This document shows, piece after piece, positions 24,587-35,916 of a DNA stretch of 64,000 bases. The translations under genes and the position numbers were made by a program. How positions within the stretch are numbered: the first letter of the stretch is position 1; each line of letters begins with the position of its first letter. The stretch spans positions 448,001 through 512,000 of the forward strand of contig OZ244197.1 of NCBI GenBank assembly GCA_965216785.1, in the 5' to 3' direction. Source of the DNA: Thermodesulfobacteriota bacterium (GTDB lineage Bacteria; Desulfobacterota_D; UBA1144; Nemesobacterales; UBA2774). The notes beneath the pieces are model-generated. The model saw only the letters and a program-made list of their open reading frames with translations, was not told where the DNA came from and did no database searches.

Positions 24587-27412
24587 TTACAAACTGTTTG
24601 TGAGTTTATCAATATCCGCTACGACATCTTCTCCAAGATGAAATGTTATTACATTTCGCTTATTATCGAGAAGCGCCTGCCGGTCACCTAACGCCTGGGC
24701 GTTTTTCAGCACGCCGAAGCTGATAGATGAAGCCTTCTTACCTGGCTCGTCAGGTATGGGCGCATCCTCGGGCATCTCGGAAGTAAACTGGATAAACAGC
24801 CCGTGTCCTGCGTCTCCCTTATGGAGCTGCCCTGTAGAGTGAAGGAATCTGGGACCGAAACCAGAAGTGGTCGCAAGCTTATATTTCATCTGCACTTTCT
24901 TACGGAAGCGCTGCATAGCTTCATAAGTTTCGTCCTCCGGTTTTACGTAGGCCTGAAGAGTGACATAGCTCCTTCCCTTTGACCCGTTCTTCCCTGGACT
25001 TGCAAGGGACATAAACTTCTTAAGCGCCCCCTTAAGGTTCTTCGCTTCAAAATCAGAATATACAGTTATGCCTTCGTCAGTCAGGGTGGGCTTAATCTCG
25101 GGGAGTTTGCCCTTTTTCTGGTACGCCGCGATCATATTGCGTGCCAGCACCTTTGCGGCTTCCACATTTGGCTGGTTAAACGGATGGATTCCAATGATCA
25201 TCCCAGCAATCGCGATTGCCATCTCCCAGCGGAAGAACTCACCGCCCAGATCGTATATGTCTTTTAGATTTATACGGACAACCGGGTGCCTAGCGGCCTC
25301 TAATTTTCTAACATGCTCGTCGTAAGTGTTGTCGTGAGCGAGCCGGAGGTATACAAAAAGTCTGTCTTTAGCATAGTATTTGGGCTCCGTTATAGGTTCT
25401 CTGTCTACCGGCAGTATGCCTTTACCGCTCTTACCCGTGCTCTCGGCTATAAGCTGCTCTGCCCATGCGCCGAAGCTCTCGATCGGAGGGGACGCGATCA
25501 GTGTCACTTTGTCGTGACCTGCTTTTGTAAGCTCGCCCATTATCGCTCCGAGCCACGCTCCCGAATGGTCGCCCTCGACCGGACAATTACAGCTCTCGTT
25601 GTTATGGAGCATAGTTATAGCCCGCGCAAGAAGGGTGTCCAAATCGACTCCCTGAAACGCCGCTGGCGGTATTCCCACCATAGATAGCGCCGAATAGCGG
25701 CCTCCAATGTTGGGATCGTTAAGGAACGTTTTTCTAAATTTCAGATCTTTGGCTATTTTCTCAAGTCCGCTTCCGGGGTCTGTGATGGCTACGAAATGTC
25801 GCCCAACCTCCCTTTTCCCGACTTTTTTAAGAGTCACGTTGTAGAAATATTTCATATAGGACAGAGTCTCCGCCGTGCCGCCTGATTTAGTGGACACCAT
25901 AAAGAGAGTCTTCTCCGGATCGAGACGCCTCTCAAAATCGAGTATTGTGCCAGGATCTGTGCTGTCCAGTACCGCTACGTCCAGATAACCGTCTCTCACG
26001 CCGTAGGTCTGCCGTATTACCGAAACCGCAAGGCTCGAGCCTCCCATCCCCATAAGGAGTGCGTTCGTATAGCCTTCAGCCCTTACCTCATCGACAACGG
26101 CGTTAATCCCGCTCAGCGCGTCAGCCATGACTTCTGGTATGTGAAGCCAACCCAAACGGTTACTGATTTCAGTCGAGTCTTTTTCCCAGACCAGATAATC
26201 AAAGTCCCAAATCTTCTCTATAATCTTTTTCTTGCGGATATTCTCAAGCGCTTTATCCACGGCCCCCTGAAACTTTCCGAGGCTCGCGGAATAGGGCTTT
26301 TTTTCCTGTAATATACTCTCCTTCTTCTCCTCGATACTGGCCATAAGCGTTTCAAAAGATTCCGCGAATTTTTTAACTCCGTCCTGGAGGAGATGATCTG
26401 TTACTGCCTTCAGGCTGATACCGGCTTTCTCTAGCGCGGCCAGGTCTTCGTGGGCTTTCTTTAACCCTTTTGTAAGAGTAATAGAGGGCTTGCCGTGGTC
26501 CTTAAAATTCTTGTAGGTGTTCGGAGGAACCGTATTTACAGTGTTCGGACCAATCAACTCATCGACATAAAGGGTGTCTGAGTATTCAGGGTTCTTGGTG
26601 CTGGTACTTGCCCAAAGCACTCTTTGTGGTTTTGCTCCCGCGTCTGCGAGTTTTTTCCACCGAGGGCCTTTAAAGGTCTTTTTGTACTCTTCATATGTAA
26701 TCTTTGAGTTAGCAATTGCGATCTTGCCCTGTAGCTTTTTGTTCCCTATCTTCTCAAGCTCGGTGTCCACTGCGGTGTCCACTCTGCTTACGAAGAACGA
26801 GGCTACCGAGGCTACTCTGTCGACCGTATGTCCTTTGAATACGGACGGGCCTTCTCTATGAAGCCTCTCTAGTCCCTTAATATAAGCTTCGGCCACCGCT
26901 TTGTACTGATCAAGGCTGAACATCAGAGTGACATTGATGTTGATACCGGAGCCGATAAGCTCTGTAATCGCGGGTATCCCGGCAGGGGTCGCCGGTACTT
27001 TGATCATAACGTTCGGACGCCCGAGCGCAACGAAATATCTCTTTGCTTCCCGTATGGTTTTTTTTGTATCATTCGCCAATGTCGGGCTTACCTCAAGACT
27101 TATAAATCCATCCGCCCCATCCGTCTTGTCGTAAAGCGGTCTGAACTCATCCGCGGCAAGCGCGATATCCTTTAACGCCAATGCCTCGTAGATATCGTCA
27201 ACAGATTTGTTCTGCTCAACCAGGGCTTTTAAGTCCTCATCATAGTCAGAGCTCCCAGCAATGGCTTTTTCCAAGATAGAAGGATTTGAGGTTTCGCCTC
27301 TGAGACCCTCTTTTATAAGCGCCCTTAACTCCCCTGAAGTAAGAAATGAACGCCTGATGTAGTCATACCAAATTGATTGTCCAAGCTTGGTTAGATCTTT
27401 TATCCGTGACAT
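24587..27412 (-). CDS. Bifunctional transaldolase / glucose-6-phosphate isomerase fusion
   Basis: N-half GQSIWYD, TSNPSI, MIKVPAT and WASTSTKNP; C-half GMGGSSL, STKSGGT, GGRYSAL, EQLIAESTGK and PFNQPNVE. Confidence 0.93.
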   Translation of the reverse strand: MSRIKDLTKLGQSIWYDYIRRSFLTSGELRALIKEGLRGETSNPSILEKAIAGSSDYDEDLKALVEQNKSVDDIYEALALKDIALAADEFRPLYDKTDGADGFISLEVSPTLANDTKKTIREAKRYFVALGRPNVMIKVPATPAGIPAITELIGSGININVTLMFSLDQYKAVAEAYIKGLERLHREGPSVFKGHTVDRVASVASFFVSRVDTAVDTELEKIGNKKLQGKIAIANSKITYEEYKKTFKGPRWKKLADAGAKPQRVLWASTSTKNPEYSDTLYVDELIGPNTVNTVPPNTYKNFKDHGKPSITLTKGLKKAHEDLAALEKAGISLKAVTDHLLQDGVKKFAESFETLMASIEEKKESILQEKKPYSASLGKFQGAVDKALENIRKKKIIEKIWDFDYLVWEKDSTEISNRLGWLHIPEVMADALSGINAVVDEVRAEGYTNALLMGMGGSSLAVSVIRQTYGVRDGYLDVAVLDSTDPGTILDFERRLDPEKTLFMVSTKSGGTAETLSYMKYFYNVTLKKVGKREVGRHFVAITDPGSGLEKIAKDLKFRKTFLNDPNIGGRYSALSMVGIPPAAFQGVDLDTLLARAITMLHNNESCNCPVEGDHSGAWLGAIMGELTKAGHDKVTLIASPPIESFGAWAEQLIAESTGKSGKGILPVDREPITEPKYYAKDRLFVYLRLAHDNTYDEHVRKLEAARHPVVRINLKDIYDLGGEFFRWEMAIAIAGMIIGIHPFNQPNVEAAKVLARNMIAAYQKKGKLPEIKPTLTDEGITVYSDFEAKNLKGALKKFMSLASPGKNGSKGRSYVTLQAYVKPEDETYEAMQRFRKKVQMKYKLATTSGFGPRFLHSTGQLHKGDAGHGLFIQFTSEMPEDAPIPDEPGKKASSISFGVLKNAQALGDRQALLDNKRNVITFHLGEDVVADIDKLTNSL

Positions 27413-31299: not shown

Positions 31300-31851
31300 C
31301 TACTTACTAATTAATACCGGATATCCGTACGTATACACCCAATCTGTCTGCTTTGCGGGAATGTGGCAGCCAAGACAGTCCTTTTTATAGCCGGTGGATA
31401 CGTCCTTTGAAGGGTTATCAGCTAAAAACTGTGCCCAGCCCCAGCCGTCCCCCCATTTAGGGTTGTCTTTAAACCTTCCCTTCCCGTCTTTAACCATCAC
31501 GAACCACAGCACAGGATCTTTGCCGTGCAGTACCCCTTTACCGGTTGTCATATCCTGAGAGCCTTCGGAAAGCACTTCCTTAATAAGCACGGCGCCGTCA
31601 GGGAATTTTCCTCCATTGGCTTTGTACTTTTCGGCTACTCCCGGTTCAACATATACATTGTGCATCCCGCTCTCACTGTCCTCAGGGTGTACCCACGAGC
31701 CTAAGTACGTCCATTTCTCTCTGAAATCCGTCGGACGGGTTATATTGCCCTCCGAGTCAACGTATGGAGAGAAAGAGTCCCCTTCCTCGGCATGTGAAGA
31801 AATCGCGAGACCTAATGCGGCGATTATCAGAAATAATATTGTACGTTTCAT
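31300..31851 (-). CDS. Cytochrome P460 / c'-beta family periplasmic cytochrome c
   Basis: Signal peptide, MHNVY, FPDGAVLIKE, MVKD, GWGWAQF and a C-terminal CLGCH followed by YPVL. Confidence 0.88.
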   Translation of the reverse strand: MKRTILFLIIAALGLAISSHAEEGDSFSPYVDSEGNITRPTDFREKWTYLGSWVHPEDSESGMHNVYVEPGVAEKYKANGGKFPDGAVLIKEVLSEGSQDMTTGKGVLHGKDPVLWFVMVKDGKGRFKDNPKWGDGWGWAQFLADNPSKDVSTGYKKDCLGCHIPAKQTDWVYTYGYPVLISK

Positions 31852-31974: not shown

Positions 31975-32688
31975 ATGGGTAAAGCAGCGCTGGTTACTGG
32001 TGGCGGAAAGAGACTTGGGAGAGCTATTTGTCTGGCTTTAGCCGAGCGGGGCTATGATATTGGTGTGCATTATAATAGCTCTCAGACTGAAGCTGAAGAT
32101 ACTGCGGAGGCTGTAGAAGATCTTGGAGTAAACTCTGAGACATTTAAGCATGATCTCTCAAATTCGAGTAGTTCCGGAAAATTTATAAAAGGTGTGGCCA
32201 AGGTCTTTCCAAACCTGTGCCTTCTCGTCAACAGCGCTTCATTATTTGAGAACGTGAAATTTAAAGACGTAACGGAAGAGCAGTTCGATAGAGATTTTAA
32301 TATAAATTTTAAGTCGCCCTTTTTCCTGTCCCGCTATTTTAGTGAAGAGCCTTCGGCTGAGCACATAGTTAACCTGCTCGACATGAGAGTCTCTCAAATC
32401 GAAACCGAGCACTTTGTATATAATCTTTCGAAAAAAACTCTCCGCGATTTTACCCTTATGGCGGCCAAAGCGCTCGGTCCTAAGATACGGGTAAACGGAA
32501 TCTGCCCGGGCCCCATACTTCCGCCGCCCGGCATGGACGAAAGATACCTCGAGAAAGTATCGATGGATACGCCTCTTAAGGCTCCGGGGAAACCGGAATA
32601 TATAATCACGGCATTAAACTATCTTCTGGACAACCCATATGTTACGGGAGAGTGTCTTTTTGTTGACGGCGGACAGCATCTAACTTAA
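31975..32688 (+). CDS. Pteridine reductase-like SDR (FolM/PTR1 type)
   Basis: TGGGKRLG, HYN, NSAS and YNLSK; upstream of folB and folK. Confidence 0.85.
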   Translation: MGKAALVTGGGKRLGRAICLALAERGYDIGVHYNSSQTEAEDTAEAVEDLGVNSETFKHDLSNSSSSGKFIKGVAKVFPNLCLLVNSASLFENVKFKDVTEEQFDRDFNINFKSPFFLSRYFSEEPSAEHIVNLLDMRVSQIETEHFVYNLSKKTLRDFTLMAAKALGPKIRVNGICPGPILPPPGMDERYLEKVSMDTPLKAPGKPEYIITALNYLLDNPYVTGECLFVDGGQHLT

Positions 32689-32701
32689 GGAAGAGTGAGA
32701 T

Positions 32702-33049
32702 ATGATAATAAATATAGAGAACTTGAGGCTGAGGACTACGGTAGGCATCTATGAGTGGGAGCAAAAGGTCAAGCAGGACATAGTAATTAATATAGAAATA
32801 GAGTTTGACGGCACCCGGGCTATTGCAGAAGACGCCATCGAGCACACAGTAGATTATAAAACCGTAACCAAGAAAATTATCGCTATGGTCGAGGACACGA
32901 AGTACAATCTGATAGAAAGGATCTCGGGCGATGTGGTGAGGCTAATTATGGAGGACGAGAAAGTGCTGAGGGCAAGCGTAAAAGTAGATAAGCCCGGAGC
33001 GCTCCGTTTCACAGATTCCGTATCGGTAACAAGTACCGAGACAAGATAA
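32702..33049 (+). CDS. folB: Dihydroneopterin aldolase (FolB/FolX family)
   Basis: GIYEWE, VDYK, LIE and DKPGAL. Confidence 0.85.
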   Translation: MIINIENLRLRTTVGIYEWEQKVKQDIVINIEIEFDGTRAIAEDAIEHTVDYKTVTKKIIAMVEDTKYNLIERISGDVVRLIMEDEKVLRASVKVDKPGALRFTDSVSVTSTETR

Positions 33050-33067
33050 TTTAAGTCATCAAATATT

Positions 33068-33460
33068 ATGAAACACAATAGAGTTGTGATAGGTGTAGGT
33101 TCTAATATAAAACCTGAAAAAAATATAGCCCTTGCAAAGGCGGAGATTGAATCCGCGCACGAGCTTTTGAAAGCTTCTTCGTTTGTAAAGACCGAACCCC
33201 TGGGATTTAAGAACCAGGACAAATTCACAAACGGGGCGTTTCTAATTCGTACAGAAATGGATCTGGACGAGCTCAAGTCATGGTTAAATAATCTTGAGAG
33301 CAAACTGGGAAGGGTAAAGACCGAAAACAAAAACGGTCCCAGAACAATCGATCTCGACATTCTCGTATGGAACGGAGAAATAGTGGACGGAGATGTAGCT
33401 GAGCGTAAGTTTTTAAGAGAATCAATTGACGAGCTCATGCCTGACCTAGAGATCAAATAG
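33068..33460 (+). CDS. folK: 2-amino-4-hydroxy-6-hydroxymethyldihydropteridine diphosphokinase
   Basis: IGVGSNI, FTNGA, ESKLGR and GPRTIDLDIL. Confidence 0.93.
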   Translation: MKHNRVVIGVGSNIKPEKNIALAKAEIESAHELLKASSFVKTEPLGFKNQDKFTNGAFLIRTEMDLDELKSWLNNLESKLGRVKTENKNGPRTIDLDILVWNGEIVDGDVAERKFLRESIDELMPDLEIK

Positions 33461-33580: not shown

Positions 33581-34213
33581 ATGAATACTAACTATCTGGC
33601 GGTTTTACTGGGCATTTTCTTTATATTTTCAGCGGCATACTCTGACGCCCAAGAAGAAAAAGAGCGTATCGTTAGGGGCAATATCGTTTGTGTTGAATTA
33701 GATGAAACCGGCGGGGCCAGCGTGTCAGAAGATTTCACACAGTGCGAGGGAGTGGTCTATATGCTGGGAGTTGACGGTAAGATATCCTCTATCCACGGCT
33801 CTGAGCAAGAGATGAAGAAATTGAGCGCCAGCTCAAAAACCAGAATGGGCTACCGTCTTCCGCTAAGGCTAAAGGGCACGGACGCCGGACACCAAAGGGC
33901 ATGGCGGCTCTACATGCAATCACTTGTGCCTCTGGACGAAGGAGACTCCGCGGAGGTAACAGTGACCGGCACCATTCACTGCCTGTTCCCAGATTACAAA
34001 GAAGGTAGTGTTACCCCTGAAATCGCTACAGCGCCATGTAATGAATATGAAAACCACGCGCATGTGATCTATACAGACGAGGGACAAACCTATGCATTAC
34101 ACGGTCCGCATGAGAAAATTACCGCTATTGAAATGACTTCTAACAGAGAAAACGTGACTCTCACAGGAAACCTACAGGGTAATAGCAGCGGCTGGATACT
34201 GTACATTAATTAG
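33581..34213 (+). CDS. Hypothetical secreted protein with an internal two-domain repeat
   Basis: GGAGG RBS, signal peptide and two similar halves of about 85 aa, each with two Cys. Confidence 0.7.
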   Translation: MNTNYLAVLLGIFFIFSAAYSDAQEEKERIVRGNIVCVELDETGGASVSEDFTQCEGVVYMLGVDGKISSIHGSEQEMKKLSASSKTRMGYRLPLRLKGTDAGHQRAWRLYMQSLVPLDEGDSAEVTVTGTIHCLFPDYKEGSVTPEIATAPCNEYENHAHVIYTDEGQTYALHGPHEKITAIEMTSNRENVTLTGNLQGNSSGWILYIN

Positions 34214-34234: not shown

Positions 34235-34837
34235 TTAAAAGTAAACACAGTAGTGAAGGAGCCGTCCTTCAAATATATTCTCCTGAACCTCATACTCTCT
34301 CCCTATTGTCTCAAGCTCATCGAAATCAAAATTCTTTGGCAGCCTCATAACTATAGAGCCCGAGACTTTAAATGCCAGATGTAGAAGCGTTGTTCCGTCG
34401 GGCTCAAAATCCGAGAGATTAAACTTACTCTTCTCATTGTAGTCTGTCCCTCCCCACGGGGGGTCAAGAAATACGGTATCGGGTTTAAGAGTAGGAAGTA
34501 TGTCGGTAGTATCGCCGAGCCGAAAATCAATAGCGCCGCCAACACCGAATAGAGAAGCGTTTCTTTCTGCCATACCCAGTCTCTTTATATCACTATCTAT
34601 GGCGATTACTTTCTTGCCCGCTCTGGCAAACCCTATTGCCATTCCTCCAACGCCGCAAAAAGCATCTACTACCAAATCGCCGGGCGTCTTCTCTGCTATA
34701 TCGAGAGCTATAGGCTCAAGCGCAAGCGAGAAAAGCCCCTCCTCGTCAAACTCCATTCTCTTTTCCACATCGCTCAACCGGTCCCAGTAGTGCTGGAAAT
34801 GAGAACCAAACGGGCAAATATCAATGCTCTTAGTCAT
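34235..34837 (-). CDS. SAM-dependent methyltransferase resembling trimethylguanosine synthase Tgs1 (RNA cap guanine-N2 MTase)
   Basis: DEEGLFS, VVDAFCGVGG, VIAID, VFLDPPWGGTDY and RLPKN. ATG 34837 overlaps the upstream TGA (ATGA). Confidence 0.78.
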   Translation of the reverse strand: MTKSIDICPFGSHFQHYWDRLSDVEKRMEFDEEGLFSLALEPIALDIAEKTPGDLVVDAFCGVGGMAIGFARAGKKVIAIDSDIKRLGMAERNASLFGVGGAIDFRLGDTTDILPTLKPDTVFLDPPWGGTDYNEKSKFNLSDFEPDGTTLLHLAFKVSGSIVMRLPKNFDFDELETIGREYEVQENIFEGRLLHYCVYF

Positions 34838-35916
34838 TGTTGAGACCCAAACCACCCGGATAAAACGCCTTCCGCTTTCTTACCGTAAGGTGTGAAACCC
34901 AGGGGGATATTTCCTCGCTCATAACTGTTCATATCCGTAAAATATTTCCAAACGAAAACGCCCGCAAGATATGGCTTATCCCTAAAGACGAGCGAGGTCG
35001 CCTCATAAGCTAGCGCCTGCTCTTCCTGGCTCGCCTTCCCGTCTTTACTCCACTCCCAGGGCTTAATCGTAGTACCCTCTACAGACTTATAGCCTATCTC
35101 AGTAAAAATCACTTTTTTATTGAATTTCTGTGATAACTCTCTGATTTCGGGCTCGTATTTATTCCAGCCCGACACGAGCTCTTTAAGCGTCGGGTTATTT
35201 TTATCTGATAGCGGGAAGTACGCGTCTATTCCGATATAGTCTAGCAAGCCCCAGAACTCGATCTTCTTTGCGTTCATACCCTCGGCTGCGTAAGCGAGCT
35301 TGCCTGAGTATATACCTCTTACATCACTGATGAGCGCATTCCATTCTTTCGTGTATTTGCTCATACCTACAAGCTCTGTTCCGACAACGAGAATCTCCAC
35401 GCCTGTTTGTTCCGCCAGCGCCGCCTCTGATAGAATAAACTTTCCATAACTCGAGAACCACTCTTTCCTCTCTATTGGGTCTTCGAAGTCAATCTTATTT
35501 CTCCAGTTATCTAAATCAAGGTTATGTCCCCCGATCCATATGTGCGGCTTCAGCATTACCCTAAACCCGGCTTCCCGTAAATTCTCTATTTCCGCCCTCA
35601 TAAACTTTTCGGCCATTGTCGGATCGTGACCCATAATAACCTCCGTATCTTTCCTGCTCCTCATGTACGCAAATGTATTGAGCTGGACTGTGTCGTACCC
35701 CACGCTGCTCAGATGGGAGTGCATAGCTTTTGACGGCATCGAGCCGTAACCGTTTCCTATCTTGTGTATATGGGCGAGCACAGCTCCTTTGTATTCGAGC
35801 GCTCCGCTTTGGGAAGGTTCGGGCTGCTTTTCTAGCTTATTTGTTAAAGCTGTTGCCGCCAAAATAAAAACAGAAGAGACCAGGATCAGGAGTGCAATCT
35901 TTAAATGACTTTTCAT
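34834..35916 (-). CDS. Glycoside hydrolase family 113-like secreted protein
   Basis: N-terminal signal/anchor, VMLKPHI, VGTEL (acid/base), IGIDAYFPL and FTEIGY (nucleophile). Confidence 0.82.
   Translation of the reverse strand: MKSHLKIALLILVSSVFILAATALTNKLEKQPEPSQSGALEYKGAVLAHIHKIGNGYGSMPSKAMHSHLSSVGYDTVQLNTFAYMRSRKDTEVIMGHDPTMAEKFMRAEIENLREAGFRVMLKPHIWIGGHNLDLDNWRNKIDFEDPIERKEWFSSYGKFILSEAALAEQTGVEILVVGTELVGMSKYTKEWNALISDVRGIYSGKLAYAAEGMNAKKIEFWGLLDYIGIDAYFPLSDKNNPTLKELVSGWNKYEPEIRELSQKFNKKVIFTEIGYKSVEGTTIKPWEWSKDGKASQEEQALAYEATSLVFRDKPYLAGVFVWKYFTDMNSYERGNIPLGFTPYGKKAEGVLSGWFGSQQ

What the first reader, a model, noticed from the sequence alone, without database searches (positions are those of the whole stretch)
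34235..34837. Standalone bacterial protein resembling the eukaryotic RNA cap hypermethylase Tgs1
Seen: YW...FDEEGLFSL..E.IA..IA...VVDAFCGVGG...F...VIAID...N A..FGV...IDF..GD...VFLDPPWGG.DY...F....PDG...IV..LPKN...E..EN...YF. Known, from recall of human TGS1: D.EGWFS..PE.IA..IA, VVDAFCGVGG, VIAID, VFLSPPWGGPDY, SPDG, LPRN, EQN and terminal YF occur in the same order over the whole catalytic domain. Bacteria have no m7G caps, and the cap-stacking Trp appears replaced by Leu. Inference: an unknown guanine-N2 methylation substrate (non-canonical cap, free nucleotide, tRNA/rRNA, or host/viral RNA) and possibly inter-domain gene transfer.
Basis: partly seen in the sequence, partly recalled or inferred. 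Interest (0 to 1): 0.72.

Follow-up and report, generated by a model that had tools for sequence, protein, structure and literature searches.

The report
Standalone bacterial cap-type guanine methyltransferase
This bacterium carries an intact relative of TGS1, the eukaryotic enzyme that adds extra methyl groups to RNA caps, and it likely methylates a 7-methylguanine nucleotide or RNA end, although its real target in bacteria is untested.

Summary
Confirmed. Window 34235-34837 (-) encodes a 200-aa Tgs1-family protein: human TGS1 E 1e-34; model TM 0.91 and Z 29.7 to the active form, next fold Z 17.3. It is not RsmD or a THUMP enzyme. It belongs to a rare family across many bacterial phyla: 6 of 120 class genomes, under purifying selection but repeatedly lost. 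The family is not nested among the sampled eukaryotic Tgs1, so recent eukaryote-to-bacterium transfer is unsupported; the root is unresolved. Local gene order gives no clue. Relatives are fused or adjacent to nucleoside-deoxyribosyltransferase-like, deaminase, Fic and histamine-N-methyltransferase-like domains, pointing to small-nucleotide chemistry; no Fic or close methyltransferase partner was found in this genome. Best reading (0.45): SAM-dependent N2 methylation of an exposed 7-methylguanine, either free m7G nucleotides or m7Gp4G-type RNA ends. Several residues important in the human enzyme differ, so specificity is untested. This scan earlier noted a separate, longer myxobacterial Tgs-like family on other DNA.

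The parts
34235..34837 (-). Gene for a 200-aa standalone Tgs1-family (PF09445) SAM-dependent guanine-N2 methyltransferase homologue
34718..34837 (-). Residues 1-40: helical N-terminal extension that completes the cap pocket in TGS1. It carries the family C-P-x-G motif, YW, a 4-residue deletion relative to TGS1, E33, L35 (= Trp669) and S37 (= Ser671)
   Evidence: PMC2709555
34643..34672 (-). SAM-binding motif I, residues 56-65 (VVDAFCGVGG; D58 = human Asp696)
34439..34465 (-). Catalytic and base-stacking motif, residues 125-133 (DPPWGGxxY; D125 = Ser763, W128 = Trp766, Y133 = Tyr771)
34331..34345 (-). Residues 165-169 (RLPKN): R165 = Phe804, P167 = Pro806, K168 = phosphate-binding Arg807, N169 = Asn808
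34834..35916 (-). Upstream GH113 glycoside hydrolase gene whose stop overlaps the ATG. Probable co-transcription, but the link is not conserved as a functional pair

Best explanation
The gene encodes an accessory Tgs1-family enzyme that likely uses SAM to methylate the exocyclic N2 of an exposed 7-methylguanine, most likely on a free m7G nucleotide or an m7G-bearing 5' RNA end rather than on an internal tRNA or rRNA base. Shown: family membership, a conserved SAM site and guanine pocket in sequence and model, purifying selection, and patchy retention. Inferred from characterised Tgs enzymes: the base stacks on W128 against S37, the D125/P126 carbonyls activate N2, and Y133/K168 hold the phosphates; N7 methylation is needed first. 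Inferred source of substrate: turnover of TrmB- and RsmG-modified RNA (both genes are present) or m7Gp4G-type caps. The likely product is m2,7G; whether a second methyl is added cannot be told from sequence. The role would be marking or disposing of such nucleotides, and it is dispensable.
For: The model (pLDDT 95) matches active TGS1 3GDH at TM 0.91, inactive 3EGI at 0.73 and other folds at 0.68 or less; Z 29.7, rmsd 1.6 A over 195 residues from residue 6, next Z 17.3. Among 83 family representatives: Trp766 81, Asn731 83, Asp696 82, Pro806 83, Tyr771 71, Ser671 67, Asp at Ser763 79. Human S763D keeps 97% activity (PMC2709555). S. pombe, Giardia and Trichomonas Tgs methylate free m7GDP/m7GTP/m7GpppN without protein or RNA partners and ignore GTP/GDP (PMC1865056 and PMC2588526, passages and one section read). 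There is no THUMP or other RNA-binding domain, and net charge is -14. Relatives fuse to small-nucleotide enzymes: a nucleoside 2-deoxyribosyltransferase-like domain in 4 proteins plus L121, and a deaminase, Fic and a methyltransferase whose best full-length PDB match is histamine N-methyltransferase, an imidazole-N methylase (E 1.7e-9). The genome has TrmB and RsmG; its only Maf has the YhdE signature, not the m7GTP-cleaving YceF signature. m7Gp4Gm caps were reported in E. coli. dN/dS is about 0.24 within the genus.
Against: There are no activity data. Residues important in human TGS1 differ here: Thr673 is A39 (T673A leaves 13%; Giardia T40A under 1%), Asn704 is M66 (5%), Phe655 is L21 beside a 4-residue deletion (F655A under 1%), Arg807 is K168, Lys646 is H16, and Phe804 is R165. 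The pocket may therefore have shifted. m7G nucleotides were below LC-MS detection in E. coli (PMC3899018). TrmB, RsmG and a YhdE-type Maf are widespread (the Maf, TrmB and RsmG profiles ring over cut-off in 10, 12 and 12 of 14 control genomes), so they do not explain the rarity. The fusion partners belong to other branches of the family; no Fic and no close homologue of the partner methyltransferase was found in this 92%-complete genome. The E. coli caps come from an organism not shown to carry this family.
Confidence: 0.45

Rival explanations
1. It N2-methylates a guanine-type small molecule that is not N7-methylated, such as GTP/GDP/GMP, Gp4G, (p)ppGpp, cyclic di-GMP, a 7-deazaguanine or a pterin.
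For: The substitutions at the 646, 655, 673, 704, 804 and 807 positions are family-wide rather than random. Small-molecule partner domains occur in relatives. Pterin genes (short-chain reductase, folB, folK) converge on the gene in the Dadabacteria locus.
Against: The Tgs enzymes described in the papers read require m7G. The Trp/Ser pocket linked to m7G stacking is conserved. The fol genes are on the other strand and stay when the gene is lost.
Confidence: 0.2
2. It is an orphan tRNA or rRNA m2G methyltransferase acting on an internal or terminal guanosine, like Trm11, Trm14 or RsmD.
For: It uses the same (D/N/S)PP(W/F/Y) chemistry. Weak hits to UPF0020, Trm14 and RsmD profiles. NCBI labels some members 'RsmD family'.
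Against: All those hits are far below the curated NCBIfam cut-offs. The genome has its own RsmD, at 141 bits versus 20 for this gene. No THUMP domain; acidic protein. Z 14.5-16.8 to RsmD-like, Trm14 and Trm11 versus 29.7 to TGS1. RsmD, RlmD and PrmC fall on a separate side of the tree. The distribution is sporadic, with repeated loss.
Confidence: 0.12
3. It is a leftover or standalone part of a mobile conflict module, for example self-protection or product tailoring for a Fic-made GMP adduct.
For: Fic is fused in P0266/P0179 (Gracilibacteria-type) and in P0148/P0176/L049, and adjacent in L041 and L048. PIN, IS200, AAA_14-DUF4143, Sacsin/NOV or provirus neighbours occur in 7 of 19 family loci outside the Dadabacteria synteny block; no background control was run.
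Against: In this lineage the gene sits in an old, stable chromosomal block with saturated dS. No Fic was found in the genome. There were no plasmid hits and only generic phage hits. The PADLOC mad2 hit is generic.
Confidence: 0.12
4. It is catalytically weak or dead and only binds guanine nucleotides, or is on its way to loss.
For: Changes at residues essential in human and Giardia enzymes. Two of nine syntenic loci hold internally deleted copies and four are empty.
Against: SAM and catalytic motifs are near-invariant over 120 homologues, and dN/dS is 0.21-0.24.
Confidence: 0.06
5. It acts on capped RNA of a eukaryotic host or virus after transfer from a eukaryote.
For: The closest solved structure is human TGS1, and giant viruses carry Tgs enzymes.
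Against: No hydrophobic N-terminal signal. Placement with animal Tgs1 is rejected (p 3e-9). Not found in class families f6, f8 and f9 (0 of 6, 0 of 37, 0 of 19).
Confidence: 0.05

Closest known systems
Human TGS1 / eukaryotic trimethylguanosine synthase (PF09445; PDB 3GDH, 3EGI)
   Same: Whole domain including the helical N-terminal extension (TM 0.91, 37% structural identity). SAM motif, PPW stacking Trp, Ser671, Tyr771, Pro806, Asn731 and Asn808 equivalents are all present.
   Different: Bacterial, standalone, 200 aa, no long N-terminal region. D for Ser763, L for Trp669, A for Thr673, M for Asn704, R for Phe804, K for Arg807, and a 4-residue deletion in the extension. Substrate unknown.
Giardia Tgs2, Trichomonas Tgs and giant-virus Tgs (Giardia and Trichomonas enzymes are N2 monomethylases)
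   Same: Small standalone enzymes. DPPW as in Giardia Tgs2 and mimivirus Tgs, and a non-Trp residue at the Trp669 site. A basic residue at the Phe804 site, as in 41 of 42 virus-type rows.
   Different: Virus-type sequences form their own branch (99-100 support). D versus S does not predict mono- versus dimethylation, as Trichomonas has SPPW and is a monomethylase.
Myxococcota long Tgs-like family
   Same: Bacterial PF09445 domain with DPPW.
   Different: Longer proteins with an N-terminal region, more basic, common in the phylum (50 of 301 genomes) and a separate branch (97 support).
RsmD, Trm11/Trm14 (THUMP) guanine-N2 RNA methyltransferases
   Same: Class I fold and (D/N/S)PP(W/F/Y) chemistry.
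   Different: Much lower sequence and structure scores. No THUMP domain here, and the genome has a separate true RsmD.

Membership tests
Tgs1 (cap guanine-N2 methyltransferase) family | Full-domain homology to TGS1 well above other methyltransferases | tested here: met
   E 1e-34 versus 2e-6; Z 29.7 versus 17.3
Tgs1 family | Helical N-terminal extension completing the cap pocket | tested here: met
   Model aligns from residue 6 to the 3GDH extension; TM 0.91 to the active form versus 0.73 to the inactive form. It has a 4-residue deletion.
Tgs1 family | (S/D)PPW motif with cap-stacking Trp766 and opposing Ser671 | tested here: met
   D125-P-P-W128 and S37; W in 81 of 83 and S in 67 of 83 representatives
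Tgs1 family | Phosphate contacts Lys646, Tyr771, Arg807, and further important residues Thr673, Asn704, Phe655 | tested here: inconclusive
   Y133 kept and K168 conservative; H16, A39, M66 and L21 differ
Tgs1 family | SAM-dependent N2 methylation that requires prior N7 methylation | not testable with these tools
   Needs an enzyme assay
Eukaryotic Tgs1 orthologue group | Branches inside eukaryotic Tgs1 | tested here: not met
   Eukaryote rows are one side of a branch at 91-97 support. Nesting with animals is rejected (p 3e-9) and with fungi-like rows marginally (p 0.033); with two deep rows it is not rejected (p 0.052). Divergent protists were not sampled.
RsmD (TIGR00095) | Score above the curated cut-off of 117.5 bits | tested here: not met
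   21 bits; the true RsmD elsewhere in the genome scores 141 bits
THUMP-type Trm11/Trm14/RlmKL | THUMP RNA-binding domain joined to the methyltransferase | tested here: not met
   The 200-aa protein is covered end to end by the Tgs1 domain; Trm14 model 21 bits versus cut-off 480
MADS anti-phage Mad2 | Specific match to mad2 over the profile | tested here: not met
   Match covers only the SAM-binding part; the profile hits 44 places in this genome and this gene ranks 17th

The most novel reading that the evidence does not exclude
Bacteria run their own cap-like guanine tailoring pathway: a Fic domain transfers GMP, a histamine-N-methyltransferase-like enzyme methylates N7, and this Tgs family methylates N2, giving m2,7G or m2,2,7G on RNA ends, proteins or small nucleotides. 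The trio recurs in two different gene orders in distant bacteria. Standalone members like this one act on m7G made by other routes, and eukaryotic and giant-virus Tgs1 were recruited from this bacterial pool.
Probability: 0.2. Interest if true: 0.85.

Novelty: new variant of a known kind. Interest (0 to 1): 0.56.

Why it matters
A 2008 paper states that the Tgs family appears exclusively eukaryotic, while noting an uncharacterised archaeal and Gram-positive family with similarity (PMC2588526). Here a bacterial family keeps the complete cap pocket, spans many phyla and is about as diverse as eukaryotic Tgs1. If active as predicted, it means an N2,7-methylated guanine product in bacteria, a candidate enzyme for tailoring methylated non-canonical caps, and a possible origin of the TMG-capping enzyme. 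It is cheap to test: a 200-aa protein, a standard m7GDP assay, and a relative annotated in the named species Methylomagnum ishizawai. Interest is tempered because databases already auto-label members 'trimethylguanosine synthase', the gene is dispensable, and this genome gives no contextual clue to the substrate.

Tried and rejected
Local operon as a clue: GH113, Mut7-C, MFS and FAD monooxygenase are each missing next to the gene in some orthologous loci, and the block persists without the gene; rejected. Rfam scan of 24000-46000 found 0 hits. Promoter and terminator counts were at shuffle level, 19 versus 16.1 and 10 versus 9.1. PADLOC mad2 hit was generic. PHROGs gave only generic DNA-methyltransferase hits. 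Plasmids: no match. Phage records: 8 weak partial matches. Viral contigs: 7 loci with the single query and 77 with the profile, all distant except L121. Expression: no RNA holder listed, so nothing can be said about expression. The single-sequence fold of the partner methyltransferase failed (pLDDT 35) and was not used. The AU test on 62 rows did not finish and was redone on 35 rows with LG+G4. Rooting on RlmD/PrmC-like outgroups is unresolved (support 47). D versus S in the PPW motif was rejected as a predictor of mono- or dimethylation. Literature: ten searches listed no paper characterising a bacterial Tgs1-family protein. The library lacks most subscription papers, and Mouaikel 2003 and the mimivirus Tgs paper could not be opened, so prior bioinformatic mention is not excluded. 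No supplements were read. No complex prediction was run.

Full report
Observation. Window 34235-34837 on the minus strand is an intact 200-codon ORF, the last of a run of co-oriented genes (FAD monooxygenase, MFS, Mut7-C, GH113). Its ATG overlaps the GH113 stop. It faces a convergent run of a short-chain reductase, folB, folK and a hypothetical gene. The protein matches Pfam PF09445 at 102 bits and human TGS1 at E 1.2e-34, with the next PDB hit at 2e-6; 200 shuffles reach at most 23.5 bits against 132 for the real sequence. The host genome is a single 3.12-Mb contig, 92% complete. A 77%-identical orthologue lies in a record titled Candidatus Dadabacteria, so I take the host to be a relative of that group (inference). 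Gene GC equals genome GC, and an assembly from another study spans the region in one piece.

Structure and active site. An AlphaFold2 model from 98 homologues has pLDDT 95. Foldseek gives TM 0.91 to active TGS1 (3GDH), 0.73 to the inactive form with a misfolded N-terminal extension, and 0.68 or less to anything else. A Foldseek-independent search gives Z 29.7 (rmsd 1.6 A, 195 residues) against 17.3 for the next chain, 16.8 for Trm14 and 14.5 for an RsmD-like protein. I read the Results and Discussion of the 3GDH paper (PMC2709555). Only Trp766 stacks the cap and Ser671 closes the other side; Trp669 is structural. Mapping through a mammalian TGS1 with matching numbering gives W128 = Trp766, S37 = Ser671, D125 = Ser763 (S763D keeps 97% activity), Y133 = Tyr771, and D58, D81, N93, D109, P167, N169 conserved. 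L35 replaces Trp669, a site also non-Trp in active Trichomonas and Giardia enzymes (PMC2588526 section 12). Against a simple copy of TGS1: A39, M66, L21 (with a 4-residue deletion), K168, H16 and R165 replace Thr673, Asn704, Phe655, Arg807, Lys646 and Phe804, several of which are important in human or Giardia mutants (PMC1865056, passages read). Similar changes are shared across the bacterial branch, which suggests compensation or a shifted pocket rather than decay (inference).

Not RsmD or THUMP. All NCBIfam hits are far below cut-off. The genome has a separate RsmD. There is no extra RNA-binding domain, and the protein is acidic, with net charge -14. RsmD, RlmD and PrmC-like rows fall on their own side of the tree.

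Family and distribution. The first search gave 260 proteins at E <= 1e-10; the best 120 were listed, 110-350 aa by design. Of 72 full-length representatives, 63 are 265 aa or shorter. Source names include Thermodesulfobacteriota, Deltaproteobacteria, Bacteroidota, Planctomycetota, Verrucomicrobiota, Methylomagnum ishizawai, Limnocylindrales, Patescibacteria, Gracilibacteria and Bdellovibrionales. The family is rare: 6 of 120 genomes of the host's class, own genome included and one copy broken. In samples of 301 genomes that include the seed genome, it occurs in 2 (Planctomycetota), 1 (Verrucomicrobiota) and 1 (Bacteroidota). In the host family the gene is old and being lost. Of 9 loci with the same flanking genes, 3 are intact, 2 carry internal deletions and 4 are empty. 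dN/dS is 0.24 and 0.21 in the two unsaturated pairs, and dS is near or at saturation in the other 34. A separate, longer Tgs-like family occurs in 50 of 301 Myxococcota genomes, matching earlier scan notes.

Phylogeny. Trees of 35-90 rows place eukaryote-type rows on one side of a branch (91-97), virus-type rows on another (99-100) and, once well sampled, myxobacterial rows on a third (97-98). The query's short-extension branch has 97-99 support in the smaller trees and 84 in the 62-row tree. The standalone bacterial family forms a clade or grade outside these groups. AU tests reject nesting with animals (p 3e-9), reject nesting with fungi-like rows only marginally (p 0.033), and do not reject joining two deep eukaryote-type rows (p 0.052). 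The root is unresolved (47). Caveats: most rows have no taxon name and were labelled by me from motifs, length, score and source; long or redundant rows were dropped between trees; Giardia, Trichomonas, kinetoplastid and archaeal sequences were not sampled. So a recent transfer from eukaryotes is unsupported, and the direction of any ancient transfer is open.

Functional clues. The local gene order is uninformative, and neighbours outside Dadabacteria show no shared family beyond Fic. Fusions are more telling. Four proteins, one named as Planctomycetaceae, plus a proviral locus join Tgs to a nucleoside 2-deoxyribosyltransferase-like domain (Pfam E 3e-4 in one; Atlas score 0.92). Two join it to Fic alone, and three to deaminase, Fic and a second methyltransferase. 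In a code-25 contig a standalone Tgs is followed by a methyltransferase-Fic gene whose methyltransferase matches that of the fusions (E 3e-27), so the trio recurs in a different order. A profile of that methyltransferase finds histamine N-methyltransferase as its best full-length PDB match (E 1.7e-9). That enzyme methylates an imidazole nitrogen, the ring that carries guanine N7 (general chemistry), so it is a lead for an m7G-making partner, not proof. Neither Fic nor that methyltransferase was found in the window's genome.

Mechanism. Tgs enzymes in the papers read act alone on free m7GDP, m7GTP or m7GpppN and not on GTP or GDP. Bacteria do hold m7G: TrmB and RsmG genes are present here, YceF-type Maf proteins hydrolyse m7GTP (PMC3899018, passages), and m7Gp4Gm caps were reported in E. 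coli (PMC7044304, passages). This genome's single Maf is YhdE-type. I therefore favour N2 methylation of an exposed m7G on a free nucleotide or 5' end (0.45). The rivals are an unmethylated guanine-type small molecule (0.2), an internal RNA guanosine (0.12), a conflict-module role (0.12), a dead or binding-only protein (0.06) and foreign capped RNA (0.05). Family membership and pocket conservation are shown; activity, substrate, product and role are inferred.

Novelty. This is a new variant of a known kind. A 2008 paper calls the family apparently eukaryote-only while noting a similar uncharacterised archaeal and Gram-positive family; I could not open the 2003 source, so I cannot say whether that is this family. 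Ten literature searches listed no characterisation of a bacterial member, but automatic annotation already names some members trimethylguanosine synthase. Interest 0.56.

Noticed in passing
L041:881-3014; L049:2486-7254; P0148, P0176, P0266, P0179; L048:5950-8390: A Tgs + Fic (+ histamine-N-methyltransferase-like methyltransferase, + deaminase) module recurs as fusions or neighbours in different orders. It may be an undescribed nucleotide-modifying pathway. The Fic motifs seen lack the last Arg of the canonical motif (canonical motif recalled).
   Followed up: partly
P0153, P0183, P0187, P0191; L121:3461-4660: Nucleoside 2-deoxyribosyltransferase-like domain fused to Tgs. In L121 it follows a 2-hydroxyacid dehydrogenase gene and an unknown gene on a contig filed as viral.
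   Followed up: partly
L229-L258 (phylum of the Myxococcota record L027): A separate, longer, more basic Tgs-like family in 50 of 301 genomes; three starred subgroups plus one long row in the tree.
   Followed up: partly
L119 (G001) and L120 (G031): Two differently deleted remnants of the gene at the orthologous locus, plus four empty sites in relatives: ongoing loss.
   Followed up: yes
window 33581-34213 (+): A 210-aa protein with no Pfam family, an N-terminal hydrophobic stretch and Cys motifs. Four matches in this genome and matches in 35 of 61 genomes searched, own included: an unannotated lineage family.
   Followed up: partly
window 31975-33460 (+): Short-chain (pteridine-reductase-like) reductase, folB and folK in a row, converging on the Tgs gene; conserved in relatives with or without it.
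   Followed up: partly
window 24587-27412 (-): A 941-aa ORF that looks by its motifs like a transaldolase fused to glucose-6-phosphate isomerase, next to transketolase; not scanned.
   Followed up: no
window 31300-31851 (-): Cytochrome P460 family protein, present at this locus in only some relatives.
   Followed up: no
P0133: Tgs domain of the query's own branch behind an unannotated 190-aa N-terminal domain.
   Followed up: no
L126, L135, L157, L168: Giant-virus-type contigs with two tandem Tgs-like genes.
   Followed up: no
P0141: Protist Tgs1 fused to a PHAX RNA-binding domain and an SDE2 C-terminal domain.
   Followed up: no
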